A stretch of DNA of 64,000 nucleotides, from positions 32,001 to 96,000 of IMG/VR virus record IMGVR_UViG_3300009103_000007; one strand, given 5' to 3'. Source of the DNA: a virus. Made by a program: the position numbers and the translations under genes. Below are positions 1 through 13,000 of the stretch, piece after piece; position 1 is the stretch's first letter; each line of letters starts with the position of its first letter. The notes under the pieces are model-generated. The model had not been told where the DNA came from, made no database searches, and was given only the letters and a program-made list of their open reading frames with translations.

Positions 1-2
1 TA

Positions 3-950
3 AGTTTAGCTAAGGCCTCAGGAGCAGACGCCGTAAAATTTCAACATTTTCAGGCAAATTCTTTCATAAGTGCTGCAGGGTTTGATTCCCTCGACGGCCG
101 TAAATCTCATCAAGACACATGGAAAAAGAGTGTATACAAGGTGTACGAGGACGCCTCAATACCCCTTACGTGGACTGAGGAGTTGATAACTTACTGCAGT
201 GAAATTGATATTACATTTTTTTCTTCTCCATACGGCTTGGACATGGTGAAACACTTGAGCCAGCATGTGCCCGCTTGGAAAATTGGCAGTGGAGATATAA
301 ACTTCCATGCCCAACTAGAAAAGGTTGCGCGCACACAAAAGCCAGTCATGCTTGCCACTGGCGCCTCAACCTTAGAGGAGGTTATTGAATCTGTAGAGTT
401 ACTGAAGAAACACACAGATAAGATAGTGCTTATGCAATGTAATACAAATTATACTGCTGGCGAAGAAAATTTTGATCACATAAACCTAAACGTTCTTAAC
501 ACTTATGGCACCTTATTCCCTGATGTTATATTGGGGCTGAGTGACCATACGCTTGGTCACGAAACAGTCCTTGGCTCCATCGCTCTTGGAGCTCGGGTGA
601 TAGAAAAACACTTTACAGATGATAATACTCGCATCGGCCCCGACCATGCATTCAGCATGAACCCGGACACTTGGTCTCAGATGGTCAGAAGTAGTCGTAT
701 CTTGGAGCGCTCTCTTGGATCCCCAATTAAGAAAGTGTGCGAAAATGAAAAAGAAACTGTCATACTACAAAGAAGGGCCCTTTATGCGACAGAAGATATT
801 CCCGCTGGCACTTATTTAAAAAACAGCATGTTTGAACCAAAGCGCCCATCTCTAGGGGGGTGCGTGAACATTAATTCTTTTTTAGGCGAGAGGAAAACAA
901 GAAAGCCGATTAAGAGTGGGAGTTGTTTAAGGGAAGACCACTTGGAATGA
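3..950 (+). CDS. neuB: NeuB/PseI/LegI-family nonulosonic acid synthase with C-terminal SAF domain (5'-truncated by window edge)
   Basis: Frame is open from nt 3 and reads ...ASGADAVKFQ..., upstream of the listed GTG at 141. Contains KIGSGD, LATGAS, GLSDHT, VIEKHFT and GPDH motifs plus a C-terminal RRALYATEDIPAG..KRP SAF-like tail. Confidence 0.92.
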   Translation, partial: SLAKASGADAVKFQHFQANSFISAAGFDSLDGRKSHQDTWKKSVYKVYEDASIPLTWTEELITYCSEIDITFFSSPYGLDMVKHLSQHVPAWKIGSGDINFHAQLEKVARTQKPVMLATGASTLEEVIESVELLKKHTDKIVLMQCNTNYTAGEENFDHINLNVLNTYGTLFPDVILGLSDHTLGHETVLGSIALGARVIEKHFTDDNTRIGPDHAFSMNPDTWSQMVRSSRILERSLGSPIKKVCENEKETVILQRRALYATEDIPAGTYLKNSMFEPKRPSLGGCVNINSFLGERKTRKPIKSGSCLREDHLE

Positions 951-1468
951 CATCGCTGACACTCAGTCCCATCGAGCGCTCCGATTTAGCCTTGATTCAA
1001 AGTTGGAGAAACTCCAAAAAAGTGTTACCTTATGTGAGAGAATATCGCCTCTTATCTTTAGAGCATGTGGAAAAGTGGTTCGAGGACATGATATTGGATG
1101 ATAAATTCCAGATGTTTATGATGCACCACCAGTCAATTCCGATTGGAATTTGTGGCCTGACATACATAAATTGGCAAAACCGGCATGCCGATCTACACTT
1201 TGCAATCTACAAAGATGACAAGTGGATAGATGACAGATACGCTCCAGAGTTTTATAAAATAATTGCTGATTATGCATTTGGGGACCTTAATTTGAATAAA
1301 ATGTATGTTGAGGTCTATGAAAATGATCACAAAAAAATATCCTTTTTCGAAAGTCAACATTTTAAACTAGATGGCAGAAATAGACAGCATTATTATCACA
1401 AAGGCGAATATTTGGATTCACTCATTTACAGCATTCTGAAGGTCGAATATTTAGGAGAGAATTTATGA
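947..1468 (+). CDS. GNAT N-acetyltransferase, PseH/RimJ-like
   Basis: ATG at 947 overlaps the upstream stop (ATGA). DLALIQSWRNS..V, AFGDLNLNKMYVEVYEND and F..DGR.RQHYY..GEY.DS..YSIL are typical of PseH/RimL acetyltransferases; sits directly after a PseI-like synthase. Confidence 0.8.
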   Translation: MTSLTLSPIERSDLALIQSWRNSKKVLPYVREYRLLSLEHVEKWFEDMILDDKFQMFMMHHQSIPIGICGLTYINWQNRHADLHFAIYKDDKWIDDRYAPEFYKIIADYAFGDLNLNKMYVEVYENDHKKISFFESQHFKLDGRNRQHYYHKGEYLDSLIYSILKVEYLGENL

Positions 1469-2340
1469 AACTATTCATCCTTGGTCCTGGTTCGTCACTA
1501 AATCACCATATAGAGGAAATAAAAAAAGCATCAATTACTGAAAAGTTACTGGCCTTTCAAAATGTTTTTCCAAATTGCGTAGATCATTTTGATGTGGTGC
1601 CAGATTACTGGGTTTCAGGGGATCCGAACGCCTATATGCAGGGGTTTAGATATTTGATGAACACCACGGACAAGAGGTTTCTGAAGATGCAAATATTGAT
1701 ACCCGACATCTTTACTAAAGGAATTATTGAATATAGAAGGTACTGTGGGACGACTCCGCTTATAAGAGCTGCTGGTGCATGGCAAGAGTTTGAATACCTG
1801 TTGAAAGAAGTGAGAAAGAGATATAATACAAGGGTGGTGAAATGCACAACAACTAAATTTATTAAAGATCCCTCGCATCAATCGGCAGCTTTAAAAGAAA
1901 ATGATATTTTTGGTGAAAATGCTTTTTATCGATTTATGCATCATGTGCCAATTTTTGGCACTGTTGAGTTTGACAGTGAATCTGTCATAGGGGACAGATA
2001 TAAGTGGGGGCTGGAAAACAAGCTAAGTAGTATAGTTTTTCCAATAGCATATTATTTAAGAGCAAAGCAGGTATATATAGCCGGCTTCGACTTTCAAGGT
2101 CCAAGATTCTATAGCGACGACGAAAGGCATCCGTGGTCTGATGAGTCTCAAGCCAATTCTGTGGTAGAATTTCCTTTAAGAATTATCAAAAAATGGTTAC
2201 AATGGAGTAGATTCCATGGAATGGAACTATTCAGTATAGTTGATGAAAAGTGGTCACTGTTGAACAAGGTGATACCACATAAAAAAATTACAGACGTTTA
2301 TAAGGAGAAACAATGTTTAACCCATACAAAGACACGCTAA
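1465..2340 (+). CDS. Maf/DUF115/CstII-like putative nonulosonate glycosyltransferase (copy 1)
   Basis: N-terminal FILGPGSSL, central VVPDYWVSGDP and C-terminal AYYLRAKQVYIAGFDFQGPRFY match the GxGPS...PD..V..DP...LG.K.IYL.G.D pattern of this fold. Confidence 0.6.
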   Translation: MKLFILGPGSSLNHHIEEIKKASITEKLLAFQNVFPNCVDHFDVVPDYWVSGDPNAYMQGFRYLMNTTDKRFLKMQILIPDIFTKGIIEYRRYCGTTPLIRAAGAWQEFEYLLKEVRKRYNTRVVKCTTTKFIKDPSHQSAALKENDIFGENAFYRFMHHVPIFGTVEFDSESVIGDRYKWGLENKLSSIVFPIAYYLRAKQVYIAGFDFQGPRFYSDDERHPWSDESQANSVVEFPLRIIKKWLQWSRFHGMELFSIVDEKWSLLNKVIPHKKITDVYKEKQCLTHTKTR

Positions 2341-3179
2341 ATTTGCCATTTGTGATTGCTGAAATTGGCATTAATCACAATGGGGACATTGAGCTTGCAA
2401 AGAAATTAATTGATTTAGCGGTTGACTCAGGGTGTCAAGCCGTAAAATTTCAAAAAAGAGATATAGATGTGGTATACACACAAGAATATCTAGATTCAGC
2501 CCGTCAATCACCGTGGGGCACTACCCAAAGAGAACAGAAGCTTGGATTGGAATTTGGCAAGAAAGAGTATGATATTATAGATGATTATTGCAAACAGAAG
2601 GGAATTTTATGGTCTGCTTCCGCTTGGGACCTAGAGAGTCAAATCTTTTTGAGACAATATGATCTCCCTTTCAACAAGGTGGCTTCTGCTATGTTGACTC
2701 ACAAAGAGCTTCTTAAAGAAATTGCAAATGAGGGCCGCCACACTTTTATTTCTACTGGTATGAGCACCTTTGGAGACATTGACGATGCAATAGGAATTTT
2801 TGAAGCAGCAGGTTGTCCAATTACGTTATTTCATTGTGTGTCCACGTATCCGTGTAAAGACGAGGATTGTAATATAAATCTTATCAAGACATTGAAGGAA
2901 AGATATGGGGTTCCTGTGGGATATAGCGGCCACGAAGAGGGGATCCTTCCTTCAATACTGGCTGTTTCTGTTGGGGCTGTGGCCTTAGAGAGACACATTA
3001 CACTAGATAAGAATATGTATGGTTCTGATCAATCTGCGTCGATTGAGAGGGAGGATTTGGTGAGACTCGTGGAGGAGACTAGAAAGGTGACTAACACGAT
3101 GGGTACTGGTCAGAAATTCTTTCTACAACATGAGCGTCCTGTCGCGACCAAATTACGATATTTTGAAGTTGTGGGGTAG
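2313..3179 (+). CDS. neuB: NeuB-family N-acetylneuraminate/KDN(-9-phosphate) synthase, short form lacking SAF domain
   Basis: FVIAEIGINHNGDIELAKKLID, AVKFQKR, ISTGMS, LFHCVSTYP, VGYSGHE, ERHITLDK and GSDQSAS motifs; AAGGAG RBS before the ATG; protein ends at 288 aa. Confidence 0.93.
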   Translation: MFNPYKDTLNLPFVIAEIGINHNGDIELAKKLIDLAVDSGCQAVKFQKRDIDVVYTQEYLDSARQSPWGTTQREQKLGLEFGKKEYDIIDDYCKQKGILWSASAWDLESQIFLRQYDLPFNKVASAMLTHKELLKEIANEGRHTFISTGMSTFGDIDDAIGIFEAAGCPITLFHCVSTYPCKDEDCNINLIKTLKERYGVPVGYSGHEEGILPSILAVSVGAVALERHITLDKNMYGSDQSASIEREDLVRLVEETRKVTNTMGTGQKFFLQHERPVATKLRYFEVVG

Positions 3180-3192
3180 CGTGGCCGGTAAT

Positions 3193-3534
3193 ATGAAATT
3201 TGTTCCCAAGGGATGGGGATTTGAGAAGTGGATAGTGAACAAAGAGCAATATTGTGGCAAGTTGTTGTATTTTGTGAAAGACAAGAGGTGCTCGTGGCAT
3301 TATCATAAGATTAAAGATGAAGTGTTTTATATACAATCTGGCAAAATACTCGTTAAATATTCTGATCAAGATGATATAACCCTTGCTGAGGAAAAGATCT
3401 TAACAAAAGGTGATAATTTTCACGTATATGTTGGCTTGAGACATCAGATGGTAGCTTTAGAAGATACAGAATTATTCGAATTCTCGACTCAGCACTTTGA
3501 TGAAGACAGTTATAGGATTGTGAAAGGTGATTAA
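3193..3534 (+). CDS. Cupin-fold protein (mannose-6-phosphate isomerase / sugar isomerase-like)
   Basis: VPKGWGFE, CSWHYHKIKDEVFYIQSG and H..VGLRHQMVA cupin metal motifs. ATG at 3193 preferred over 3130, which overlaps neuB. Confidence 0.75.
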   Translation: MKFVPKGWGFEKWIVNKEQYCGKLLYFVKDKRCSWHYHKIKDEVFYIQSGKILVKYSDQDDITLAEEKILTKGDNFHVYVGLRHQMVALEDTELFEFSTQHFDEDSYRIVKGD

Positions 3535-4231
3535 GAATATTGACGAAATAGCTGTACTTGTCCAGGCAAGAATGTCGTCAGAAAGGTGTCCTGGTAAAAT
3601 GTTGAGACCCTTTGCTGAATCCAACCTTGTTGATATAACACTAAAAAAACTCAAAACTTCAAAAGTTTTCCCCAAAGAGAATATAGTGTTTGCAGCTGCA
3701 GAGCAAGAGTTATTGTCTGTTGCGATAGAAAATGGCGTGAATTGCTTTGTTAGGTCACACGAATCTTCGATGTGGGATGGCGGCCCCAATGCACATTTGA
3801 CTGGAATGTACGAGTGGTGGGATAAAATACCATTCAAATATGTAGTTCTTGTCAATGCTTGTACTCCGCTTTTGGCAATAGAGACTATAGACAATTTTGT
3901 AGAAGAGTATGTTAAATGTGAATCTAATGGCGCTTTTGGCGTGATAGATAAAATGAATTATTTTTGGGATGAAAATTTTAATCTACTAACCCCATTAAGA
4001 GATGCTGCCATGAATACAAAAAATGTTCAAAAAACCTACGAAGCAGCCCATTGCCTATATGCTAGTGCACTGGGGAGCATCGGGGAGAACATATGGATGG
4101 GCGACTTTAATGTTCCGGGAGAAATCGAACTTATTCCGATTAATGAAGAGGAATGTTACGACATAGATTATGAGTGGCAGTTTCCCATTGTGGAAGCAAT
4201 TTATAAATTAGAGTTTGATAATGATCGTTAA
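3527..4231 (+). CDS. neuA: CMP-nonulosonate synthetase (NeuA/PseF/KdsB-like cytidylyltransferase)
   Basis: AVLVQARMSSERCPGKMLRPFA, VLVNACTPLL and C-terminal EEECYDIDYEWQF motifs. Confidence 0.85.
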   Translation: MIKNIDEIAVLVQARMSSERCPGKMLRPFAESNLVDITLKKLKTSKVFPKENIVFAAAEQELLSVAIENGVNCFVRSHESSMWDGGPNAHLTGMYEWWDKIPFKYVVLVNACTPLLAIETIDNFVEEYVKCESNGAFGVIDKMNYFWDENFNLLTPLRDAAMNTKNVQKTYEAAHCLYASALGSIGENIWMGDFNVPGEIELIPINEEECYDIDYEWQFPIVEAIYKLEFDNDR

Positions 4232-5162
4232 TGGGTGTAAATTGGTTGCGGTTTCTGGAGAAATTATAGACAGCGACCCTTCTATTCAGCGCGCTTTCGA
4301 TGAATATGTTAGTGCGATCGGACACACCCCAAGGGACACTGTTTGGTATGATATCGAAGATTCTGTTTGTTTTGGATCTGATATGAATTATCTGAACTCC
4401 CCTAGACACGAAACGTGCTACCTAACAGATAGGGAATTTTTCATCAAAGATCCTCGCTATGGGTTGCCTTACTTTGATATTTATCGTGGCAGCGGTTATA
4501 AACTAAACGAACTGTATGTTGATAACGATATAATAGTCGAAAAGAATGTAAAAACTGAAAGGTACAGGGATTCGACAGTTTTAATCGTCGGCGCAGGCCC
4601 ATCTTTTAAAATGGCAAACATTCAGGAGGAGGAGTATGATCACCTCTGGATATGTAATGACGGGCACTCAACTAAGATGCCAGCTTCTTTATTTTATATG
4701 TCTAATACTTCTCAGACCCTTGGCACATCAAAAGAATATATGGAACTCAATAGAAATACCATAGGGTGTTTTGATATTAATGTGGTGAGAGATATAGGTT
4801 TAATGAAAGAATATCAGTCGAAGTTTGGCGAGAGAATGTTTTTGTTTAGCACTAGAGTTTTCACATCAATTGGTACGGTTCCTCGTTTAATAAATCTTGC
4901 TTCTCATCTGGGTGCCTCTAAGGTTAAATTTGTGGGCATGGATGGGCACTCTAAGGAGCATTTCAGTTCTGGGAAATCTTTCTCTTCATTCGAATTAACA
5001 TTAAAGGATATACCAAAGGGTCAAAACTACAGTAACCAGAGACGAGAATATTTATTATTCTGGGAATATATGAAAAAGAAATACCCTTCGGTTGAATTTG
5101 ATAATCTTGGAAAAGTGTACGAACATAATGTAACATCTAGGATCTTGGGATTTTTACCATGA
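4221..5162 (+). CDS. Maf/DUF115/CstII-like putative nonulosonate glycosyltransferase (copy 2)
   Basis: VLIVGAGPSF, HLWICND and LASHLGASKVKFVGMDG motifs. ATG at 4221 preferred to TTG at 4215. Confidence 0.6.
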   Translation: MIVNGCKLVAVSGEIIDSDPSIQRAFDEYVSAIGHTPRDTVWYDIEDSVCFGSDMNYLNSPRHETCYLTDREFFIKDPRYGLPYFDIYRGSGYKLNELYVDNDIIVEKNVKTERYRDSTVLIVGAGPSFKMANIQEEEYDHLWICNDGHSTKMPASLFYMSNTSQTLGTSKEYMELNRNTIGCFDINVVRDIGLMKEYQSKFGERMFLFSTRVFTSIGTVPRLINLASHLGASKVKFVGMDGHSKEHFSSGKSFSSFELTLKDIPKGQNYSNQRREYLLFWEYMKKKYPSVEFDNLGKVYEHNVTSRILGFLP

Positions 5163-5872
5163 AGTGTATTATTTGTTCTTGTGATAGTGATGTCAAAGCA
5201 GAGGATGTTTACCAATGCACATCTTGTGGTCACATATACCGGCACTTTCGAGGTGACTTGGAAGAATTTCATAGAGATAGGTATCGTACAGACCCACAAC
5301 GCCAACATAAACTTAAAGATGCCCCTGTGCGCAGAATGTTTGCTTCCAATATAGTGAGTACCATTAGTGAGCACATACCAAAGTCACCCTCATCAAGGAT
5401 ATTTGAAGTTGGATGTGGGTCAGGGTTTCTTTTAGAACAGATATCAAAAGACACAGAAGCTCAGTTAGTTGGCTGCGAATTAGACGAGGGGGTGTTAAGG
5501 ACAGCGCTAGCTTTGAATCCGGAAACATATATTATCAATGATAATTTCATGAATATAGAAAACATTGATCAAGTTGATCTTATAGTTGCCGTGGATGTTT
5601 TGGAGCATATTTTGCACGTCCGAGAGTTTTTAAGAAAGTGCCACAAGATGTTATCCGAAAAGGCATGTTTGGTTTTGCAAGTTCCAATTGACCGCCCCTC
5701 CATGTTCCGTCCCCCAAATCCTAATTTCGACGGGCATGTTCATTACTTTAATGAAGGGTCTATCAGGAAACTCCTCAGTGAGTTGTTTTTCACGGTGGAA
5801 AAAGTGATAAAGACTCAGAGAGGGCACACAGCACATGGCACAGAAATGATAATAATAGGAAAGAAAAAATGA
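5159..5872 (+). CDS. Class I SAM-dependent methyltransferase with N-terminal Cys-rich zinc-binding segment
   Basis: CIIC...CTSCGH at the N-terminus; IFEVGCGSGFLL motif I; DLIVAVDVLEHI and L..KACLVLQVP. Confidence 0.88.
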   Translation: MKCIICSCDSDVKAEDVYQCTSCGHIYRHFRGDLEEFHRDRYRTDPQRQHKLKDAPVRRMFASNIVSTISEHIPKSPSSRIFEVGCGSGFLLEQISKDTEAQLVGCELDEGVLRTALALNPETYIINDNFMNIENIDQVDLIVAVDVLEHILHVREFLRKCHKMLSEKACLVLQVPIDRPSMFRPPNPNFDGHVHYFNEGSIRKLLSELFFTVEKVIKTQRGHTAHGTEMIIIGKKK

Positions 5873-6180
5873 TCATATATATAGACATTGATGAAACAAT
5901 CTGCGTTACTTCGACAGATAGAAATTATAAAAATTCCAAACCCCTTTATCCTCGCATAAAGGAAATAAATGATTTATACGAACAAGGCAATAAGATAGTT
6001 TACTGGACTGCCCGCGGCAGCACAACCGGTATAGATTGGACCGATTTAACCCGATCTCAACTTGATGAGTGGGGTGCAAAATTTCACGATGTGAAACTCG
6101 GAAAGCCTCATTTTGATTTATATATATGTGATAAATCAATAAATTCAGAAGAATATTTCAACACAAAGGAGAAAAAATGA
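5869..6180 (+). CDS. Small HAD-superfamily phosphatase (capsule-biosynthesis phosphatase-like)
   Basis: IYIDIDETI motif I, YWTARG motif II, GKP motif III, LYICDK motif IV; cap-less 103 aa. Confidence 0.85.
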   Translation: MIIYIDIDETICVTSTDRNYKNSKPLYPRIKEINDLYEQGNKIVYWTARGSTTGIDWTDLTRSQLDEWGAKFHDVKLGKPHFDLYICDKSINSEEYFNTKEKK

Positions 6181-6389
6181 AATTATCAAACCAAGCATTA
6201 GGCGCCATTATGATGGCACTGCAAAAATCTTTAATGGAGCAGGAGGATATTGTTCCCATGCTAAACGAATTCAATTTTCGAATTGATTCAAATGAGATGT
6301 TGGTGGTAGAAAACCCTCCCTCATTTCAGGTATCTGAGTCGCAATTCAACGCCGATTGCGACACCAAAGCAACTACTGGCAGCGATTAG
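6177..6389 (+). CDS. Hypothetical protein (70 aa)
   Basis: ATGA overlap with upstream gene, AGGAG RBS, in operon. Confidence 0.7.
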   Translation: MKLSNQALGAIMMALQKSLMEQEDIVPMLNEFNFRIDSNEMLVVENPPSFQVSESQFNADCDTKATTGSD

Positions 6390-6390
6390 G

Positions 6391-6642
6391 ATGCCATTTT
6401 ACATATATCGCTGCGAGGCCTGCAGAGAGGAGTTTGAAATAAGGCATGGTATGTTTTATGTGCAGGAGAAATGCATCAAGTGTAATGGATCCGATTGCCT
6501 GTTTAAAGTGCCTTCTTTTAGTACTTCGAAGAAAGAGGAAGAGCTTGCAAGAAAGCCCGGCGAATTGATTGAGGAATATATGAAAGACGCAAAAGAAGAA
6601 ATAAAGAAAGAAAAAAAGAAATTAAAATCTGAGGAATTTTGA
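6391..6642 (+). CDS. FmdB-family zinc-ribbon protein
   Basis: MPFYIYRCEAC..EFE...CIKC pattern followed by a charged helical tail. Confidence 0.8.
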   Translation: MPFYIYRCEACREEFEIRHGMFYVQEKCIKCNGSDCLFKVPSFSTSKKEEELARKPGELIEEYMKDAKEEIKKEKKKLKSEEF

Positions 6643-6643
6643 G

Positions 6644-6949
6644 ATGTGGTTTACGTTGTTCGTGGTAAGTTTGGTGATTAATGTATTTGGCATCATGTAT
6701 GTGAGGTGGCTCTTGAAAACGCTGTCAAGTATAGGGGAGGACTTAGATGCTTTGAAGATGGCCATGAGTGAATACGTCGGCCATGTCAAATCAGTATATG
6801 AGCTAGAGATGTTCTATGGAGATCAGACGCTGAAATCTTTGATGGACCATGGTCGCGACCTAATTGGCAAGATAGAAGATGTGGATTTTGTTTTAAATTT
6901 AGAGGAGGAAATAGAGGTAGATGGCGAGAAAGAAACGGAAGAAGAATAA
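6644..6949 (+). CDS. Hypothetical membrane-anchored protein
   Basis: N-terminal hydrophobic segment WFTLFVVSLVINVFGIMYV followed by a helical acidic region. Confidence 0.65.
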   Translation: MWFTLFVVSLVINVFGIMYVRWLLKTLSSIGEDLDALKMAMSEYVGHVKSVYELEMFYGDQTLKSLMDHGRDLIGKIEDVDFVLNLEEEIEVDGEKETEEE

Positions 6950-7613
6950 TTATTTCACAAAAGTTCATGAAGACGCAATTGTAAGGTATTCAAAGACGGT
7001 TTGCCTGAAAGAGCGGACAGAATTGTATGTCTCTTTTATAGAGCCAGCGTTGTCGGAAATGGTAAATAAGATTATTTTTACTTACAAATTTAACACATTA
7101 CCAAATATAGATTCGTTGCGTGAAGATTGTAAAATTTGGCTGACAACCATATTAGACAAATATGATCAATCTAAGGGCTCGAAAGCATTTTCTTATTTTT
7201 CAGTTGTAACTAAAAATTGGTTTATTCACAAAGTTAAGAAAAATTCTAAAAAAGTAAAAAAAGAAGTCTCATACGAGAATCTCGTTGAGAACGGCGGAGC
7301 GCATATTCTTGGCACATCTGACGATAAAATAGTGCCATATACAGAACAAAGAATTGAAAATGAGTTTTGGAACTCTTTATTAACGCATCTTGACAGGTGG
7401 GATACGGGTAATCTTAAGCAAAATGAAAAAAATGTTTTACAAGGTGTGAAAATATTGCTACACAACGTTGATGATATAGATATTTTTAATAAAAAGGCGG
7501 TGTACTTGTATCTTAGAGAATTAACTGGCTTGAACACTAAGCAGGTAGTAAACAATTTAAACAAACTACGTGAAAAATATAGAATATTCAAGACAAGGTG
7601 GGATAGGGAATAA
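6921..7613 (+). CDS. Phage-encoded RNA polymerase sigma factor (sigma70 region-2-like; probable late sigma, gp55-like)
   Basis: NNYFTK..EDAIVRY and LDKYDQSKGSKAFSYFSVVTKNWFI resemble sigma region 2; GAGGAGG RBS; immediately precedes the structural block. Confidence 0.72.
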   Translation: MARKKRKKNNYFTKVHEDAIVRYSKTVCLKERTELYVSFIEPALSEMVNKIIFTYKFNTLPNIDSLREDCKIWLTTILDKYDQSKGSKAFSYFSVVTKNWFIHKVKKNSKKVKKEVSYENLVENGGAHILGTSDDKIVPYTEQRIENEFWNSLLTHLDRWDTGNLKQNEKNVLQGVKILLHNVDDIDIFNKKAVYLYLRELTGLNTKQVVNNLNKLREKYRIFKTRWDRE

Positions 7614-7626
7614 AACTGCATGGACT

Positions 7627-7634
7627 CTATTTAA
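7627..7634 (+). promoter_or_regulatory. Putative late-promoter motif CTATTTAA
   Basis: Intergenic, 3 nt before ATG 7638; same core recurs before several other late genes. Confidence 0.5.
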
Positions 7635-7637
7635 TGT

Positions 7638-7931
7638 ATGACAAAGAAAAAATTAAATAATTTTATTGAAACAGCGACTCAGAATATAACAGAGGACAGG
7701 GCAGCGACCAAAACTTTATTAATGAACTTGATGAAATATATGCAAGTTTCAGACGATCGTCACAAAGAAGTCGGTTTGGTGGCTGCGAAATATCTAGAGA
7801 CTCTACAGAGATCTAATGAGCAATTGGTTAAGCTGGCTACTCTACTACAAAGGGGTCAAAAATCTCCTGGCTCGATGACTGACGAAGATAAAGAGGAATT
7901 GTTTGATTTGATAAAAGGAGAAGAAGAATGA
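7638..7931 (+). CDS. Hypothetical helical protein (97 aa)
   Basis: Clean ORF in operon; amphipathic helical sequence; ATGA overlap with the next gene. Confidence 0.7.
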   Translation: MTKKKLNNFIETATQNITEDRAATKTLLMNLMKYMQVSDDRHKEVGLVAAKYLETLQRSNEQLVKLATLLQRGQKSPGSMTDEDKEELFDLIKGEEE

Positions 7932-8575
7932 GCTGGGAAAGAATGTATGATCCGTGGCGAATCGGGCTCAAGCTAGATAGGGCAGCACCAACTATAGGCG
8001 CGCTCCAGTCCAGCGATCCAAATATGGATAAAGTCACCAAGCTGATCAACACCATGAAACAAGCCGGCAAATATGAGGCTTTCACGCACGACCACTTGAC
8101 GAATACCGGCTTGCTGGGCTTAATATTGCATACTGAAAAAACAACTGTGAATGAGGTTAAATTTATGCTCGGCGCCCATGCCGCGACCTATAAAAATTTA
8201 AAGATGGACAGCAAGACTATAATCAAGAAAGCATACGTTTTCATTCCGGAGATTTCCACCGTGTTGCCTCCTATAACTTCGTTGGGAACACCGCGCGATG
8301 GCCCTTTTAAGAAGTTTATGGACCTTGCCCGCCTCAAAGGTGAGGCAGCGACGAAGCCGAAGGAGGACAATAATAAACAGAAGTGGGAGAAGGCTGAATG
8401 TGATTACTGGAGGGCTCTTAAGGAAATAAAGAGATACCCGATAGCTTACCCTGTCGAATCCGCCGAGAGCGCGCAGAACACCATCGCGGCTGGCCGCTTT
8501 TGTATATGTCTTTTTCCCGACCCCACCAATATGTCGTTGGTAATGATCAAAGCGTCTACACAAGAATGGACCTAA
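7928..8575 (+). CDS. Hypothetical protein, possibly OB-fold baseplate hub/spike N-terminal module
   Basis: AGGAG RBS; KAYVFIPEI..VLPP...RYP....G..C.CLFPDP loosely resembles gp5/VgrG OB-fold segments; directly upstream of the spike gene. Function is inference. Confidence 0.45.
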   Translation: MSWERMYDPWRIGLKLDRAAPTIGALQSSDPNMDKVTKLINTMKQAGKYEAFTHDHLTNTGLLGLILHTEKTTVNEVKFMLGAHAATYKNLKMDSKTIIKKAYVFIPEISTVLPPITSLGTPRDGPFKKFMDLARLKGEAATKPKEDNNKQKWEKAECDYWRALKEIKRYPIAYPVESAESAQNTIAAGRFCICLFPDPTNMSLVMIKASTQEWT

Positions 8576-8595
8576 TATAATGATAGGGATTTAGA

Positions 8596-10065
8596 ATGTC
8601 AAAAACAAAATTAAAAACATCAGTAACTAAGAGAAAAGACGGGAAATATTCAAGTACAGTTACGGTTGTTGACGAAACCGGTGCGGTATTATCAACTCAC
8701 GAATCAACCGGTGCAACACAAGAAGAGGCCGCCCAATCAGCAATCCAAGAAACAAGAGATTCTTACAAAGATTTAGATCCAGAAACCGGCTATGATATTG
8801 GTACTGCGCCCGTTGAGTATGTGCCCCCAAAGGGCGGCAAACGACGACCTAAACCACCACCAGCACCACCTAAAGATTCGGACGGAGATGGCATACCGGA
8901 TACAATGGACCGACAGAATGATCCGAACTATGAGGAGAGGGAAGTTACGAAAGGACGCAACCATACTTTGTGGAGGGGATTAGATGATAAGCCTCGCAAG
9001 ACTTCTGATCCCGGACATAAGTACGATGGCAAATACGGGTACCCCGTTAGAGAAGAGGTGCCGGGATACAAAGGCCTGCCAGGCGACGCCATATTGAATC
9101 CGAGTAATTTTGGCTCAGCTGTTGATAACAATACTCGCATAGTTCTTGGCCGCTCCCGCGATTTTCACTCTCATATGGCCGCAGGTTCTATAGATATTGT
9201 TGCTGGGCGAATGGCACCATTTCCTTTAGCATCCTGGGCCGGCCCGGGCGTAGATCCCATGAACCCTGACTCTGAGCGAACCAACGCACTTCGACTTGCA
9301 CCAATCTTTAAGCCAATGAAGTTTAATCAAAATTATGAACCCAAGTCGGCCGGCCAAATAATCGACGCAGAGGGTAATCCTGCAAAGCATCCTGGGGTTG
9401 TCATGGATGCTGCACGTGTTTACGTTAGTCAGATGACTGATGTAGATTCGCTCTTTGGTTTCGTATTGAATCCGAAGGAATCTCCTAACCCTACCATAGG
9501 AAAAGCAAATCCAGAGTACAACAAAAGGTATGAGACCCCACCTGCGCAAAAGATACCCACTTCGGCCGTCGCCGCTTCTGCTGATAAAGTGAGGCTCTAT
9601 GCGCGCCAAGATATTAAAATAATTACTGGAGGGAAAGAGGCTCAGTACAATTCTCAAGGTGTCCCGCTTAGATTTATAGGGGGAATTCACCTTATAGCTG
9701 GAAATGGAGACCCGTCCGCGGCCTCTTCAGAACCTATCCCAAAGGGAGTTAAATTAGCTGAGGCACTAGATAAACTAACAGATATAGTAGATAAAACAGT
9801 GGACCTTCTGGATGCTGGAATACAGGCCCAGATGGAGTTTAATACCGCTATGATGAACCATTTTCACCAATCTCCACTTCTTGGGATTCCAACCACCCCA
9901 TCTATAGTGGCTCAGGCTGCTGGGGTAAAGGTTCTCATTGATCACCTTTCCCGTGTTAAGGTTGGTGTTGCTTTTATAAAATCAAATATGGCTAGGTTTA
10001 AACTAAATAGACTTAACATCAGTGGGGATAATTATATCAATAGTAGATATAATACTACAAACTAG
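8596..10065 (+). CDS. Baseplate central spike protein (gpV/gp138/gp5 C-terminal-like)
   Basis: Beta-strand-rich middle (RIVLGR, SIDIVAGR, DAARVYVSQMTDVD, ADKVRLYARQDIKIITG, GGIHLIAG) and a C-terminal NHFHQSPLLGIPTTPS HxH tip motif; located before gp25/gp6-like genes. Confidence 0.65.
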   Translation: MSKTKLKTSVTKRKDGKYSSTVTVVDETGAVLSTHESTGATQEEAAQSAIQETRDSYKDLDPETGYDIGTAPVEYVPPKGGKRRPKPPPAPPKDSDGDGIPDTMDRQNDPNYEEREVTKGRNHTLWRGLDDKPRKTSDPGHKYDGKYGYPVREEVPGYKGLPGDAILNPSNFGSAVDNNTRIVLGRSRDFHSHMAAGSIDIVAGRMAPFPLASWAGPGVDPMNPDSERTNALRLAPIFKPMKFNQNYEPKSAGQIIDAEGNPAKHPGVVMDAARVYVSQMTDVDSLFGFVLNPKESPNPTIGKANPEYNKRYETPPAQKIPTSAVAASADKVRLYARQDIKIITGGKEAQYNSQGVPLRFIGGIHLIAGNGDPSAASSEPIPKGVKLAEALDKLTDIVDKTVDLLDAGIQAQMEFNTAMMNHFHQSPLLGIPTTPSIVAQAAGVKVLIDHLSRVKVGVAFIKSNMARFKLNRLNISGDNYINSRYNTTN

Positions 10066-10073
10066 TTAAAGAA

Positions 10074-13000
10074 ATGGCAGTTATAAAGCGAAAATATTTT
10101 GAAATAAGTCATAATAATGAAGCGATCTCTTTTGGCCCTCGCGGACTGGGAGATCTCGGCAGAGATATTTTAGCCGTCAAGGCAGCACTGGGAGAGATAG
10201 TGCCCGCTCAGGAAGTTGGCCAAGATGCTTCTGAAATGTCTGACAGCGGCTGGTTTGACTGTTCTACTGGTAATCCTCTAAACCCATCTGAAGGGGCAAC
10301 ATTCGATAAAAGAATGCAAAGGTCCCTGATGAAGTTCCAACTAGAAAACCAATACTACATATTAGAATATTTATTTCAGAAGTACTCTGTAAATAGAATA
10401 TTGGATGCTGTTGCTGAGGTGCAGAAAGGGGAGACTGATTATTGGTTCGAAGAAGCCGGCCCAGGCACTGAGACAACAGATAAGATGGCTGAAGCTATCA
10501 ATATGGCCAAAGAAGTACAGGCCATCATATCTCTTTTTGAATCAGAGTTTGGCTACTTGGGAGAAGCAACACTTAGTGTGCTAAATGGTTGGCTGCCCAT
10601 AACGAGCAATACTACATCGCCAGAGGGCACTTTTGATGTTGTAAGGGATGAGGCCACCGGTAGCCAACATTTATGGTATCTGACTCCCATAAACCTATGG
10701 AGTATGCTAAAAGATAAAACTATTGGCCCTGACTGGCAAGCATCGAGCACAATATTTAATTTACATACAATACAAGAAATTATTGATCACTCCTCATACT
10801 CTTATGAAGAGATTTATAGGGACTTGAGAGAGTCTTTTTTTCCACGGTCTGGCTTATCACCAGACTGGTTCAAGCTTATCCTCAGCCCTACAGGCCAGCG
10901 GTCCCAATTCGAGCGTTCTGGCCTCCCAGATTACGGATTTGTTCAGTTTGCTCGAAGACCGGAGGATTATCAGAGCCCCTTGAACACCGCGGTCCGTTTA
11001 ATTACAGAAAGTTTTCCAATACCCGCAGATCATCCCGAGTTGGAAACTCTATCCGCAGAAGCTCAGGCAGAGATGCTTATGAGGGCTTTTGAACCGGAAA
11101 TAAAAAATAATCCAGACCCCTATGAAGTTGGGTTGACTAAGATTAAATTCTTTTTGAAAACGGACTATACTTTTGAAAATCTGCCCCCTTCTCCGAATAC
11201 AGAAGAGTATGATGCATCTTTACGCGAAATGGCAGACGAGGCGCTACACCAAGTATTACAACACTATGAGCGCCCTGATGTGTGGTATATTAGCGAGGCA
11301 AGCGGAAAAGTGATTACACAGTATTTCTCTCGCCCGTGGCCACCTGAAGAAGACTCAGACAGGGCCCGACCGGAGGTCGGAGCCGGCCGGCATGATGGAA
11401 GCCTAACAGATAGCGAGACTTGGGTATTGACGCTGCAAAAACTAATAGATAATGGAACTGTCTCTTCAGACGCAGCAAAACACTTTTCATATATTGAGGG
11501 GTTCAATAACAAGGCGCCTTTAATAAAATTTGTAGAATTTAGAACACCGTCTCTTCGACCGGGCGACACCTATAGAGCTGAATTTGTCATCAACAAGAAC
11601 AAATTTGATTTAATTGAGAAAGGCATGCGCACTTCTGGCGATTACTCCGCTTCCGAAGGGTCTGTGGATTTAGGTGCTCGTCTTGATGAGGTGGAGGAGG
11701 ATCTCGCGAAGTTCTCTTGTGCAGAGAATGCAATGTCAGACGAAGAGCAGCGAAGGCGATATGCTGAGTTTAGGTCTATAGCTTCTAAGAAAAAGAAAGA
11801 AATTGTTAGAAATTTAAGAGCAATGGTTTTGGAAAGACAGGAAACTGCAGGCCGCCAACACGAAATAAGCATTCAGGGGAATCTGGGCCCTTTCGGAGAA
11901 TTAGACGTTACCAATAAGAACTTTAATGCTTTAGATGTTGCAGGGCTGGTCGGCCCCGCAGTACTCTCAAATAGTGAATCGGCCCATAACTCACTTACGG
12001 AAGATCTTCTTGGTAAGGCGAATATAGCCCAAAGCCGCAAGCAAGGTTCCCCTGTGCTGCTAGAGTGGAATACAATAAAGGTTGGTATACCAAAAGTTTC
12101 CAAAGCATTGCGCGATGCAGCTTCTGATGTATCATCTGAGGAATGGGTCGATACTAAGGGTAACCCTCTTAACCCGCCAATCGATATGGCGACAGAAGCA
12201 TCAAAATACGATGCAATTATGGACGAATTGGATCAACTATTTAAAATTATTGGCAACAAATCTATCGCTCGTCGAAATGATCAAGTTCAATTTTTGTTAG
12301 GGGGGTTTAAATCAAATTCGTTAATTCACATGGAGGACGATTTTAAATTTGACTTTACCGATGTCAAATCTGAAGACCAAACCATCATCCTCGGCCGCAA
12401 ACTTACTAAAATAGAATATGTGTCCTATCTGCGGCCGCAGTTCACATGTGCAATCGGCCCAGAGGAACTGGACTTGCACACAAAAGAGATGAACTCATTA
12501 TCCAGTCCAAGAACAATGGGATACTTTGAACAACACGAAGCCATGGCCGGCATGGGCATAGGGTCTATGGCTGACCCATTGAAGAGCACGTGCGCCGATG
12601 TCTTTTATTCAAAGCCGGGTGTTGCTTTTGCCATGCGCTATACTTATCCGAAATTGGAACCAAAGCCAAAAAAGCCCGGGCCCGACCCCGTAGAAGAGTG
12701 GGCTCGAACACAATTTATGGATCCCTTTGAAGATTGGGTTGCAACTTCCGCGGAGGGCCTCGGTGACCGATCTTGGAAAACCGGTTTCCTAGAGGATGAA
12801 AACAAATCATATAACTCCGCAGAAATATTGCCAATGATCGGGGAAGCTTGTACGCTAGAGCAACTATATGGAGAATTTTTAGATAAATATAATCTTTTTT
12901 CACTTTTGTGTGATTGGTTGAAATGTCTTCGGTTACCGGGATTTAGCTTGCAAATGCCAAATTTCCATATTCCACCTATCCCCGAGTTGCCTACATTTGG

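What the first reader, a model, noticed from the sequence alone, without database searches (positions are those of the whole stretch)
3..6180. Phage-encoded, apparently two-branch nonulosonic (sialic-like) acid synthesis and transfer cluster next to the virion genes
Seen: nine contiguous sugar genes arranged as [NeuB+SAF, PseH-like GNAT, transferase 1] then [short NeuB, cupin, NeuA, transferase 2, SAM methyltransferase, HAD phosphatase], with no host genes between them and the sigma factor/baseplate block. Established: NeuB + NeuA make CMP-activated nonulosonates, PseH acts in pseudaminic acid synthesis, and virion glycosylation is known in some mycobacteriophages and giant viruses. Inference: the phage makes two different nine-carbon sugars, each with its own transferase, to decorate its virion or remodel the host surface. 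A two-donor, two-transferase sialylation system in a phage would be unusual.
Basis: partly seen in the sequence, partly recalled or inferred. Interest (0 to 1): 0.82.

Follow-up and report, generated by a model that had tools for sequence, protein, structure and literature searches.

The report
Phage sialic-like sugar island, hypervariable
An uncultured marine T4-like phage carries a 13-gene operon with two unrelated sialic-acid-type synthases and three sialyltransferase-like enzymes. It is one version of a sugar-gene island that differs from phage to phage in a very large lineage, so these phages probably wear or impose strain-specific sugar coats, which has not been tested.

Summary
The nine genes are real and correctly ordered, and all lie on one strand with overlapping ends. 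The cluster is cut by the window edge. Four more genes lie upstream: a GT4, a GT4 fused to a Maf-like domain, a PseB-like 4,6-dehydratase and an RmlD-like 4-reductase. That makes 13 genes over 11.3 kb.

The two NeuB copies are 25% identical and fall in different clades, one with a SAF domain and one without. Models of both 'transferases' match the sialyltransferase/Maf fold (Z 12-13).

No named pathway is complete. The 121-kb contig has no aminotransferase, PseG or NeuC, and only one CMP-synthetase.

At least 595 IMG/VR stretches share the conserved left border (nuclease, GT4, GT4), and complete genomes are 185-190 kb. In 80 relatives the DNA after that border is hypervariable: 593 ORFs form 257 clusters, mostly sugar enzymes. 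Two-NeuB versions recur in at least 8 relatives and in a Zixibacteria MAG.

The 'two sugars, own transferases' reading is partly supported. Sugar identities and the acceptor (virion or host surface) are unknown.

This scan has noted phage NeuB+Maf cassettes more than 100 times on other DNA. I found no paper describing them.

The parts
1..950 (+). NeuB1, a nonulosonate synthase with a C-terminal SAF domain. It is 353 aa and its GTG start lies 111 nt upstream of the window at contig position 31889. Four more island genes lie upstream, outside the window: GT4 (contig 26904-28160), GT4+Maf-like fusion (28162-30189), PseB-like 4,6-dehydratase (30186-31160) and RmlD-like 4-reductase (31153-31911).
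   Evidence: Pfam NeuB 232.8 bits and SAF 24.8 bits. The full ORF scores 259 bits on NeuB_NnaB and 234 bits on PseI, both under the equivalog cut-offs. Best PDB matches are 1xuu (NmNeuB) at 7e-43 and 8h2c (PseI) at 1e-41. It forms a 100% supported clade with the L147 and L154 phage copies and a Zixibacteria MAG copy. Upstream genes.
923..1468 (+). GNAT acyltransferase, PseH-like but below the equivalog cut-off.
   Evidence: Acetyltransf_4 68.9 bits. TIGR03585 PseH 74.6 bits against a cut-off of 93.1. It follows a NeuB1-type gene in L008, L147 and L154 as well.
1465..2340 (+). Transferase 1: a single-domain protein of 291 aa with the Maf / GT42 sialyltransferase fold.
   Evidence: MptE-like 27.0 bits, below the gathering score of 34.6. 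AF2 model pLDDT 87. Best structural match is the catalytic domain of Maf 5mu5 (Z 12.7, rmsd 3.3, 191 aligned residues), followed by Cst-II at Z 10.9. The family has 152 representative clusters, almost all stand-alone proteins of 250-300 aa.
2313..3179 (+). NeuB2, a short nonulosonate-type synthase of 288 aa without a SAF domain.
   Evidence: Pfam NeuB 228.1 bits and no SAF. Best PDB match is 6ncs, a 290-aa SAF-less enzyme, at 1.3e-45. It is 25% identical to NeuB1. It lies in the large SAF-less clade with bacterial and archaeal members. Its cellular relatives are 49-64% identical.
3130..3534 (+). Small metal-binding cupin, probably a sugar or sugar-phosphate isomerase or epimerase.
   Evidence: Cupin_2 27.8 bits. 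The HxH...E...H motif is invariant in 5 phage copies that are 57-71% identical to it. Weak profile hits: Cap5F cupin domain at 6e-4 and D-lyxose/mannose isomerase at 6e-3. The nearest Atlas clusters are almost all viral, and some members carry Lyx_isomer or MannoseP_isomer.
3527..4231 (+). Divergent cytidylyltransferase (CMP-ulosonate synthetase). It is the only one found in the 13-gene island.
   Evidence: CTP_transf_3 48.4 bits. PseF 32 bits and KdsB-type 30 bits, all far under the cut-offs. Relatives L005 and L094, and the bacterial locus L039, carry two or more.
4215..5162 (+). Transferase 2: 315 aa, with an N-terminal extra domain of about 110 aa and a GT42/MptE/Maf-fold domain.
   Evidence: MptE-like 19.6 bits. 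The family profile hits Cst-II at E 3.2e-5. AF2 model pLDDT 91.5. Structural matches: MptE kinase Z 12.5, Cst-II Z 12.2, Cst-I Z 11.9, Maf Z 10.1.
5159..5872 (+). Class I SAM-dependent methyltransferase, probably modifying the sugar.
   Evidence: Methyltransf_23 48.2 bits and Methyltransf_12 47.5 bits. There is a weak hit to the Pse-associated methylase TIGR03587 at 20.6 bits. One Maf1-family homologue (P0017, 498 aa) also carries methyltransferase domains.
5869..6180 (+). Minimal HAD phosphatase (103 aa) of the capsule-biosynthesis phosphatase type.
   Evidence: The DxDxT motif is conserved. The profile hits PDB 9iqw 'capsule biosynthesis protein' at E 4.6e-15. TIGR01689 25.3 bits. Homologues occur in 10 of 80 bacterial NeuB2-type loci and lie directly downstream in L064 (Prochlorococcus) and L070.
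6177..6949 (+). Three small conserved ORFs (70 aa, 83 aa with a Zn-ribbon, 101 aa) that form the conserved right border of the island.
   Evidence: They are conserved at 40-67% identity next to the sigma gene in relatives. Zn_ribbon_8 scores 30 bits, below its cut-off.
6921..7613 (+). gp55-like late sigma factor, the first conserved gene after the island.
   Evidence: phrog_234 late sigma transcription factor, E 8.8e-5. It is 53-77% identical in relatives.

Best explanation
The stretch is the right-hand nine genes of a 13-gene, 11.3-kb, single-strand operon in an uncultured marine T4-like myovirus. It is one version of a hypervariable glycan-synthesis island. The island sits at a fixed place in a very large phage lineage, between a conserved nuclease-GT4-GT4 block and the late sigma gene.

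This version encodes two independent ulosonic-acid branches.

Branch 1: a PseB-like 4,6-dehydratase and an RmlD-type 4-ketoreductase make a 6-deoxy-HexNAc-type precursor. The SAF-bearing NeuB1 condenses it with PEP, and the GNAT changes the acylation.

Branch 2: the cupin isomerises a sugar or sugar phosphate. The SAF-less NeuB2 condenses it with PEP. The HAD may remove a phosphate, as in the Kdn/Neu5Ac-9-P route. The methyltransferase decorates the product.

The single cytidylyltransferase activates the acid(s). Three cut-down sialyltransferase/Maf-fold domains and the GT4 enzymes then build a glycan on an acceptor. The most likely acceptor is one or more exposed virion proteins made from the adjacent late genes.

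Shown here: gene content, folds, clade separation, and the variability and abundance of the island. Inferred: substrates, products, which transferase uses which donor, and the acceptor.
For: - Families and order of the genes.
- The NeuB copies are 25% identical, and both keep the KFQ motif and the two metal-binding His motifs. They fall in separate clades.
- The RmlD-like profile hits RmlD structures at E 3e-30.
- The block PseB-like / RmlD-like / NeuB1 / GNAT recurs in phages L147 and L154. A PseB-like / CMP-synthetase / RmlD-like / NeuB+SAF block sits beside a NeuB2-type gene in a Zixibacteria MAG.
- NeuB2 is followed by the cupin, with the HAD at the right end of the island, in L005 and L006. 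The NeuB2-type gene and the HAD are adjacent in Prochlorococcus (L064) and L070.
- Transferase folds: Maf1 matches Maf 5mu5 at Z 12.7 and Cst-II at Z 10.9. Maf2 matches Cst-II at Z 12.2, and its profile hits Cst-II at E 3e-5. All three domains carry a GxGPS-type loop and a G-[FMW]-D motif.
- Island: at least 595 IMG/VR stretches share the left border. In 80 relatives, 593 ORFs form 257 clusters. These are mostly epimerases/dehydratases, GT2/GT4, methyltransferases, NeuB, DegT and CTP_transf_3. Three of 5 complete relatives (185-190 kb) carry a NeuB.
- Position and orientation: the island lies directly upstream of the late sigma and structural genes, on the same strand.
Against: - No biochemical or proteomic data exist.
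- The contig is 67% complete. It lacks any aminotransferase, NeuC-type epimerase or PseG hydrolase. The step that frees the hexose from its nucleotide is therefore unassigned, and the GNAT has no obvious amino substrate.
- One cytidylyltransferase must serve two synthases.
- The cupin and the HAD also occur together in relatives with no NeuB hit within 10 kb of GT4a (L107, L114-L117, L146). Their tie to NeuB2 is therefore not strict.
- All three transferase domains score below Pfam's MptE-like gathering score. Maf2 matches the MptE kinase as well as it matches Cst-II.
- Nothing links the island to a specific acceptor. The T4 late-promoter motif is not enriched, so late expression is assumed from position only.
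Confidence: 0.5

Rival explanations
1. Host-surface remodelling. The island's products are put on host LPS, capsule, S-layer or pili during infection. This could block superinfection or stop progeny from sticking to debris. It would resemble phage seroconversion genes and the 'LPS gene' clusters long noted in marine cyanomyoviruses (the latter is from my own knowledge, not checked here).
For: The closest cellular homologues of NeuB2 and the HAD sit in surface-polysaccharide loci. In Prochlorococcus L064 these include GDP-mannose dehydratase, a Bac_transf initiating transferase and GT9. L039 and L028 carry GT2. The GT42 enzymes that the transferases resemble act on glycans (lipooligosaccharide), not proteins. 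Hypervariability would also fit matching diverse host serotypes.
Against: No flippase, polymerase, initiating transferase or other membrane-export gene was seen among the 13 genes. The phage looks virulent and T4-like, and lasting seroconversion mainly benefits temperate phages. The best fold match of transferase 1 is the protein-glycosylating Maf.
Confidence: 0.27
2. This is not a two-nonulosonate system. The two synthases make one nonulosonate plus a different keto-acid (for example an 8-carbon or other deoxy-ulosonate), or they act in turn or redundantly on one glycan. The 'two donors, two transferases' symmetry would then be false.
For: There is only one cytidylyltransferase. SAF-less NeuB enzymes are a poorly characterised 'environmental' group (PMC8208679). 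Neither NeuB reaches an equivalog cut-off. There are three transferase-like domains rather than two. The cupin and HAD occur without NeuB in some relatives.
Against: Both proteins are full-length NeuB-family TIM barrels with conserved metal and PEP motifs. Relatives with two NeuB genes often carry two or three cytidylyltransferases (L005, L094, L039), as expected for two activated donors.
Confidence: 0.15
3. Glycosylation of phage DNA. The conserved GT4 enzymes and the variable sugar genes hypermodify bases, as T-even phages glucosylate hmC.
For: Both GT4 proteins give hits to Pfam 'GT4-conflict' (31.5 and 22.7 bits). A PD-(D/E)XK nuclease is the conserved left neighbour.
Against: There is no ThyA-type or ThyX-type gene in this contig. 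Five complete relatives have no ThyA-type (hydroxymethylase-like) gene either. I know of no sialyltransferase-fold enzyme that acts on DNA.
Confidence: 0.03
4. Artefact: host DNA joined to a phage contig by misassembly or mis-binning.
For: Island G+C (0.39-0.40) is slightly below that of the structural region. One Maf1 homologue is labelled as coming from a Flavobacteriales MAG.
Against: Phage genes flank both sides. The same borders are found in more than 80 independent viral contigs from many samples, including five complete genomes, one with terminal repeats.
Confidence: 0.01

Closest known systems
Bacterial flagellin glycosylation islands with Maf transferases (Campylobacter, Aeromonas, Magnetospirillum Maf, PDB 5mu5)
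   Same: The gene set is similar: a PseB-type dehydratase, a NeuB-family synthase, a GNAT, a CMP-synthetase, methyltransferases and several divergent Maf-type transferases in one variable locus. The best fold match of transferase 1 is the Maf catalytic domain (Z 12.7).
   Different: - It is on a virulent-type phage, and no flagellin gene was noticed among the genes examined here.
- The transferases are 291-315 aa single-domain proteins, against 632 residues for the 5mu5 chain.
- They score below the Pfam gathering score, and their profile does not reach full-length Mafs.
- There is no aminotransferase or PseG; an RmlD-type reductase is present instead.
GT42 lipooligosaccharide sialyltransferases Cst-I/Cst-II of Campylobacter jejuni
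   Same: The fold matches (Z 10-12). The transferase 2 profile hits Cst-II at E 3e-5.
   Different: Sequence identity is only 11-16%. Transferase 2 has an extra N-terminal domain of about 110 aa. The acceptor is unknown, and catalytic residues were not mapped here.
Virus-encoded glycosylation of virions: mycobacteriophage capsid/tail-tube glycans (Freeman et al. 2023, cited in PMC12619734) and Mimivirus-type fibril glycans
   Same: The virus carries its own sugar-nucleotide and transferase genes next to structural genes. The gene sets vary between clades.
   Different: The mycobacteriophage paper was seen here only as a citation in PMC12619734, and no nonulosonate is mentioned there. Giant viruses infect eukaryotes. 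No paper found here describes a NeuB plus sialyltransferase-fold system in a phage.
Kdn / Neu5Ac-9-phosphate route (synthase acting on a sugar 6-phosphate, then a HAD phosphatase, then a CMP-synthetase)
   Same: Branch 2 has a NeuB-family synthase, a small HAD phosphatase, a cytidylyltransferase and a possible sugar-phosphate isomerase (cupin). Synthase and HAD genes are adjacent in some bacteria.
   Different: The HAD belongs to the EcbF/BcbF capsule-phosphatase type. Whether it resembles the known Kdn-9-P or NanP phosphatases was not compared here. No activity data exist, and the cupin and HAD also occur without NeuB.
neuB/neuA listed among metabolic genes in viromes (Roux et al. 2013, PMC3877843)
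   Same: That survey counted 126 neuB and 11 neuA sequences in low-contamination viromes. The presence of these genes in viral DNA is therefore already on record.
   Different: In the table seen here the genes are only counted. It gives no genomic context, transferases, island structure or function.

Membership tests
NeuB family (Pfam PF03102) nonulosonate synthases | Full-length match to the NeuB TIM-barrel profile above the gathering score | tested here: met
   NeuB1 scores 232.8 bits and NeuB2 228.1 bits, against a cut-off of 22.1.
NeuB family (Pfam PF03102) nonulosonate synthases | Conserved PEP and metal motifs (KFQ and two His motifs) | tested here: met
   The pairwise alignment shows KFQ, SDH/SGH and E[KR]H in both copies. 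NeuB1 has Asp where NeuB2 has the first-motif Glu.
N-acetylneuraminate synthase equivalog (TIGR03569) | Score above the curated equivalog cut-off of 399.65 bits | tested here: not met
   NeuB1 scores 259.3 bits and NeuB2 239.5 bits.
Pseudaminic acid synthase PseI equivalog (TIGR03586) | Score above the curated cut-off of 340.25 bits | tested here: not met
   NeuB1 scores 234.2 bits and NeuB2 177.8 bits.
Pseudaminic acid pathway (PseB-C-H-G-I-F) | PseC-type DegT aminotransferase present | tested here: not met
   PF01041 has no match on the whole 121-kb contig. Relatives L005, L008 and the bacterial locus L028 do carry one. The contig is 67% complete.
Pseudaminic acid pathway (PseB-C-H-G-I-F) | PseG UDP-sugar hydrolase present | tested here: not met
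   TIGR03590 has no match on the contig.
Pseudaminic acid pathway (PseB-C-H-G-I-F) | PseB, PseH and PseF at equivalog level | tested here: not met
   PseB scores 261.9 against 407.75, PseH 74.6 against 93.1 and PseF 32 against 205.7.
Legionaminic / neuraminic acid pathways | NeuC/LegG-type hydrolysing 2-epimerase (PF02350) present, and LegB-type dehydratase present | tested here: not met
   PF02350 has no match. LegB TIGR04180 scores only 44.8 bits against a cut-off of 475.
Maf (motility accessory factor; Pfam MptE-like PF01973) | Sequence match above the gathering score of 34.6 bits | tested here: not met
   The three domains score 27.0, 19.6 and 23.4 bits. Six-frame scores are 21.3, 13.3 and 21.8 bits.
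Maf (motility accessory factor; Pfam MptE-like PF01973) | Fold of the central catalytic domain | tested here: met
   Transferase 1 matches 5mu5 residues 273-514 with Z 12.7, rmsd 3.3 and 191 aligned residues. Transferase 2 matches 5mu5 with Z 10.1.
Maf (motility accessory factor; Pfam MptE-like PF01973) | Flanking N- and C-terminal domains of full-length Maf (about 600 aa), and flagellin as acceptor | tested here: not met
   The proteins are 291 and 315 aa. Only the central domain aligns. The family profile finds almost only proteins of 250-300 aa. The acceptor cannot be tested here.
GT42 sialyltransferases (Cst-I/Cst-II) | Sequence or fold kinship | tested here: inconclusive
   The transferase 2 profile hits Cst-II at E 3.2e-5 over 128 profile positions. 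Z is 12.2 for Cst-II but ties with the MptE kinase at Z 12.5. Catalytic residues were not mapped.
dTDP-4-dehydrorhamnose reductase-like (RmlD) 4-ketoreductases | Profile match to solved RmlD enzymes | tested here: met
   Profile A7 hits 2ggs at E 3.2e-30, 1vl0 at 1e-22 and 3sc6 at 1.3e-21. The equivalog score is only 39.3 bits against a cut-off of 224, so the nucleotide-sugar substrate is unknown.
HAD phosphatases, EcbF/BcbF capsule-biosynthesis type (TIGR01689) | DxDxT nucleophile motif and family match | tested here: inconclusive
   The motif is present and conserved. The profile hits 9iqw at E 4.6e-15. TIGR01689 scores 25.3 bits, far below its cut-off of 162.
T4-like (Straboviridae-type) myoviruses | gp55-like late sigma, gp6-like baseplate wedge and T4-type large terminase | tested here: met
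   Matches to phrog_234, phrog_219/10646 and phrog_2. TerL is 43% identical to Flavobacterium phage immuto and 42% to Microcystis phage Mel-JY01.

The most novel reading that the evidence does not exclude
Virions of an abundant, uncultured lineage of 185-190 kb marine myoviruses are O-glycosylated with phage-made acidic nine-carbon sugars. In this strain there would be two different sugars, one a 7-hydroxy-9-deoxy type made without any aminotransferase. The island encoding them would be swapped between strains like a bacterial O-antigen locus. Phages would then have glycan 'serotypes' that shape adsorption, stickiness or escape from host and grazer recognition.
Probability: 0.3. Interest if true: 0.85.

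Novelty: new variant of a known kind. Interest (0 to 1): 0.62.

Why it matters
Nonulosonic acids are best known as bacterial and animal surface signals. A virulent phage lineage that makes its own, with its own cut-down sialyltransferase-type enzymes, would add a new class of virus-encoded surface chemistry.

The gene set also varies between strains as much as a bacterial O-antigen locus does. That suggests strong diversifying selection on phage, or infected-cell, glycans in the ocean.

The lineage is abundant: at least 595 IMG/VR stretches, and more than 120 NeuB2 clusters at 65% identity or more in metagenomes, many of them marine. Any effect on adsorption, aggregation or particle export could therefore matter ecologically.

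The locus also offers compact enzymes for glyco-engineering: SAF-less synthases and 290-aa transferases. It points to a candidate route to a nonulosonate that needs no aminotransferase.

Tried and rejected
- Megablast of the island against 50,697 phage records gave no match. tblastn with NeuB1 found homologues in only 3 records, one of them a bacterial contig.
- Sequence and profile searches of transferase 1 against the PDB gave nothing useful. The fold search was needed.
- Profile-profile comparisons among the three Maf-like families gave only motif-level matches, with probabilities of 62%, 21% and 5%. I do not claim they are close paralogues.
- The T4 late-promoter motif TATAAATA occurs 7 times against 4.6 expected, so it is not enriched. 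I make no claim about timing.
- The DNA-modification idea found no ThyA or ThyX in this contig and no ThyA in 5 complete relatives.
- The idea that the cupin and HAD serve only NeuB2 is weakened by relatives that have both but no NeuB hit nearby.
Bacterial context came from the search for related loci instead.
- No paper on PDB entry 9iqw was found.
- A NeuB tree with biochemically characterised references could not be built, because no reference sequences could be fetched. The tree is FastTree only, has sparse sampling on the NeuB1 side, and carries long-branch warnings.
- Host identity was not resolved. The tmRNA tag and the TerL neighbours are uninformative.

Full report
**What is there.** The window is positions 32001-96000 of a 121,041-bp linear IMG/VR viral contig that CheckV rates 67% complete.

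| Window coordinates | Gene | Evidence |
|---|---|---|
| up to 950 | NeuB+SAF | NeuB 232.8 bits, SAF 24.8 bits |
| 923-1468 | PseH-like GNAT | 74.6 bits, below the 93.1 cut-off |
| 1465-2340 | weak MptE/Maf-like protein | 27.0 bits |
| 2313-3179 | second NeuB, no SAF | 228.1 bits |
| 3130-3534 | cupin | Cupin_2 27.8 bits |
| 3527-4231 | cytidylyltransferase | CTP_transf_3 48.4 bits |
| 4215-5162 | second weak MptE-like protein | 19.6 bits |
| 5159-5872 | SAM methyltransferase | 48.2 bits |
| 5869-6180 | 103-aa HAD | NCBIfam TIGR01689 25.3 bits |

The window edge cuts the cluster. NeuB1 starts at a GTG 111 nt upstream and is 353 aa. Four more genes precede it in the same orientation:
- a GT4 of 418 aa;
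- a 675-aa fusion of a GT4 with an MptE/Maf-like domain;
- a PseB/FnlA-like UDP-GlcNAc 4,6-dehydratase (Polysacc_synt_2 273 bits; PseB 262 bits, below its 408 cut-off);
- a 252-aa RmlD-like reductase.

The unit is therefore 13 genes over 11.3 kb. It is flanked on the left by a PD-(D/E)XK nuclease. On the right are three small conserved ORFs and a gp55-like late sigma factor. A baseplate wedge gene, two ORFs of about 4,300 aa and the large terminase follow. The phage is a distant T4-like myovirus. Its TerL is 43% identical to that of Flavobacterium phage immuto.

**The two synthases.** NeuB1 and NeuB2 share 25% identity, and both keep the KFQ and two His motifs.
- NeuB1 is about equally close to N. 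meningitidis NeuB (1xuu) and C. jejuni PseI (8h2c).
- NeuB2 is closest to 6ncs, a 290-aa SAF-less enzyme.
- Neither reaches the NeuB or PseI equivalog cut-offs.

I built a FastTree of 118 NeuB sequences from phage and cellular loci. The two copies lie on opposite sides of the deepest split. NeuB1 sits in a fully supported clade with two phage copies and one Zixibacteria copy. NeuB2 sits in the large SAF-less clade. The phage label needs 5-7 changes on that tree, so NeuB genes have moved between cells and these phages several times. SAF-less NeuBs are described in the literature as an 'environmental' group of unknown specificity (PMC8208679).

**The 'transferases'.** Sequence evidence alone was too weak, so I modelled both proteins.
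- Transferase 1 has 62 homologue clusters. Its AF2 model has pLDDT 87. It matches best the catalytic domain of the Magnetospirillum Maf glycosyltransferase (Z 12.7, rmsd 3.3, 191 residues), then Cst-II (Z 10.9). Every match above Z 7 is a sialyltransferase, an MptE kinase or SteA.
- The profile of transferase 2 hits Cst-II at E 3e-5. Its model has pLDDT 91.5. It matches the MptE kinase (Z 12.5), Cst-II (12.2), Cst-I (11.9) and Maf (10.1) over residues ~116-312. An extra N-terminal domain of about 110 aa is not covered by the Cst-II alignments.

All three Maf-like domains carry a GxGPS-type loop and a G-[FMW]-D motif. Otherwise they are barely comparable with one another. An exhaustive profile search with the transferase 1 family found only 152 representative clusters, nearly all stand-alone proteins of 250-300 aa, and did not reach full-length Mafs. 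I therefore describe them as cut-down proteins with the sialyltransferase/Maf fold, not as members of the Maf family.

**What the pathway can and cannot be.** The contig has no DegT aminotransferase, no NeuC-type epimerase and no PseG. The pseudaminic and legionaminic routes are therefore incomplete.

In relatives, the slot after the PseB-like gene holds a DegT aminotransferase (L005), and L008 also carries one beside its NeuB1-like gene. Here that slot holds a reductase whose profile matches RmlD structures at E 3e-30. This is not an accident of one contig:
- PseB-like / RmlD-like / NeuB1 / GNAT recurs in L147 and L154 at 43-63% identity.
- A Zixibacteria MAG has PseB-like / CMP-synthetase / RmlD-like / NeuB+SAF (54% identical to NeuB1) a few genes from a NeuB2-type gene.

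My inference is that branch 1 reduces the 4-keto intermediate instead of aminating it. That would give a 7-hydroxy-9-deoxy nonulosonate. The step that frees the hexose from its nucleotide and the GNAT's substrate remain unassigned.

Branch 2 is NeuB2 with a metal-binding cupin and a minimal HAD.
- The cupin's HxH..E..H motif is invariant. It gives weak hits to the Cap5F cupin domain and to lyxose/mannose isomerases. Its nearest Atlas clusters are almost all viral.
- The HAD has a DxDxT motif and matches PDB 9iqw at E 5e-15.
- HAD homologues occur in 10 of 80 bacterial NeuB2-type loci. They lie directly downstream in a Prochlorococcus cell (L064) and in L070.

This fits a Kdn/Neu5Ac-9-phosphate-style route. 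However, the cupin and the HAD also occur in relatives with no NeuB nearby, so I rate that reading at about one in three. Only one cytidylyltransferase is present here. Relatives with two NeuB genes often have two or three.

**The wider picture.** Searching IMG/VR with NeuB2 gave five syntenic relatives. Searching with the upstream GT4 gave at least 595 matching stretches, of which 80 were kept. They include five complete genomes of 185-190 kb, one with terminal repeats.

In nearly all of them the block nuclease / GT4 / GT4 is conserved. Where the flank reaches far enough, the small ORFs and the sigma gene close the island. Between these borders the content is hypervariable:
- 593 ORFs from 80 loci fall into 257 clusters, and the largest has 16 members.
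- A Pfam census of 150 cluster representatives is dominated by sugar-nucleotide epimerases/dehydratases (17), GT2 (7), FkbM methyltransferases (7), NeuB (5), DegT (4), CTP_transf_3 (3) and radical SAM enzymes (3).

Other versions carry formyltransferase, carbamoyltransferase, an HpcH-type aldolase, a B12-radical SAM enzyme and extra SDRs. At least 17 of the 80 loci have a NeuB within 10 kb. Three of the five complete genomes have one farther out, so islands can exceed 20 kb. Versions with two NeuB genes occur in L005, L008, L009, L094, L113, L140, L147 and L154.

The finding is thus one version of a strain-variable glycan island in an abundant marine phage lineage. NeuB2 itself has more than 120 clusters at 65% identity or more in metagenomes, many from Tara.

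**Acceptor.** Nothing here identifies it.

For a virion target:
- The island sits directly upstream of the late sigma and structural genes, on the same strand.
- The best fold match of transferase 1 is a protein O-glycosyltransferase.
- None of the 13 genes resembles a flippase, a polymerase or an initiating transferase.
- Three structural-region proteins are enriched in [ST][GAS]S tripeptides beyond what their composition predicts (z 4.5-5.1). That lead came from another note of this scan.

For a host-surface target:
- The cellular homologues sit in polysaccharide loci.
- The GT42 enzymes act on glycans.

DNA glycosylation is unlikely. No ThyA-type hydroxymethylase is found in this contig or in five complete relatives. 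Misassembly is excluded by the recurring borders.

**Known or new.** Roux et al. 2013 already counted neuB and neuA among virome metabolic genes (PMC3877843). Virion glycosylation is documented for mycobacteriophages (cited in PMC12619734). Six full-text searches found no paper describing a phage NeuB plus sialyltransferase-fold system or this island. Earlier notes of this scan report phage NeuB+Maf cassettes in at least 104 other genomes, so the general theme is recurrent in uncultured phages.

What is specific here:
- the T4-like lineage;
- the two-branch version without an aminotransferase;
- the three cut-down transferase domains;
- the O-antigen-like variability of the locus.

I rate it a new variant of a known kind, with interest 0.62.

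Noticed in passing
window 10074-22973 and 27962-40795: Two giant ORFs of 4299 and 4277 aa lie in the structural region, on either side of the baseplate wedge gene. Only the second is enriched in [ST][GAS]S.
   Followed up: partly
window 25302-27965, 27962-40795, 50555-51901: [ST][GAS]S tripeptides occur 19, 39 and 9 times, against 6.9, 17.7 and 2.3 expected from shuffles (z 4.5-5.1). No other ORF of 300 aa or more on the contig exceeds z 3. They are possible O-glycosylation sites, but this is unproven.
   Followed up: partly
L004:7531-7835 (contig 7531-7835) and L003:9646-9720: The phage carries a tmRNA with tag peptide ANDDVEIFEDFALAA and a tRNA with a CAU anticodon.
   Followed up: no
L003:11482-12792: A 436-aa protein fuses an N-terminal PIN domain (92 bits) to a PhoH domain (176 bits). 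A ClpP-like protease lies at L003:9739-10368.
   Followed up: no
L003:13027-13722: A 231-aa ORF gives a weak, sub-threshold hit to the zincin-type ATLF domain (21.5 bits against a cut-off of 27.4). It is probably a small metallopeptidase-like protein.
   Followed up: no
L064:4927-6822 (Prochlorococcus single-cell genome): A 631-aa fusion of a NeuB domain with a xylose-isomerase-like TIM barrel sits two genes before a NeuB2-type gene and its HAD. The related phage L008 has the same parts as separate genes.
   Followed up: no
L005:5049-5801 and 7311-8990; L008:16232-17890: Other island versions carry a formyltransferase, a carbamoyltransferase and a B12-binding radical SAM enzyme next to NeuB and Maf-like genes. 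This implies N-formyl, carbamoyl and C-methyl-type sugar decorations.
   Followed up: no
L116, L132, L167, L139, L127 (records of 185-190 kb): Five relatives are rated 100% complete, and one has direct terminal repeats. The present 121-kb contig is therefore about two thirds of a genome. Islands can reach more than 18 kb beyond the GT4 gene.
   Followed up: partly
P0017 (homologue of window 1465-2340): One transferase 1 homologue is 498 aa and also carries methyltransferase domains. This is a natural transferase-methyltransferase fusion.
   Followed up: no
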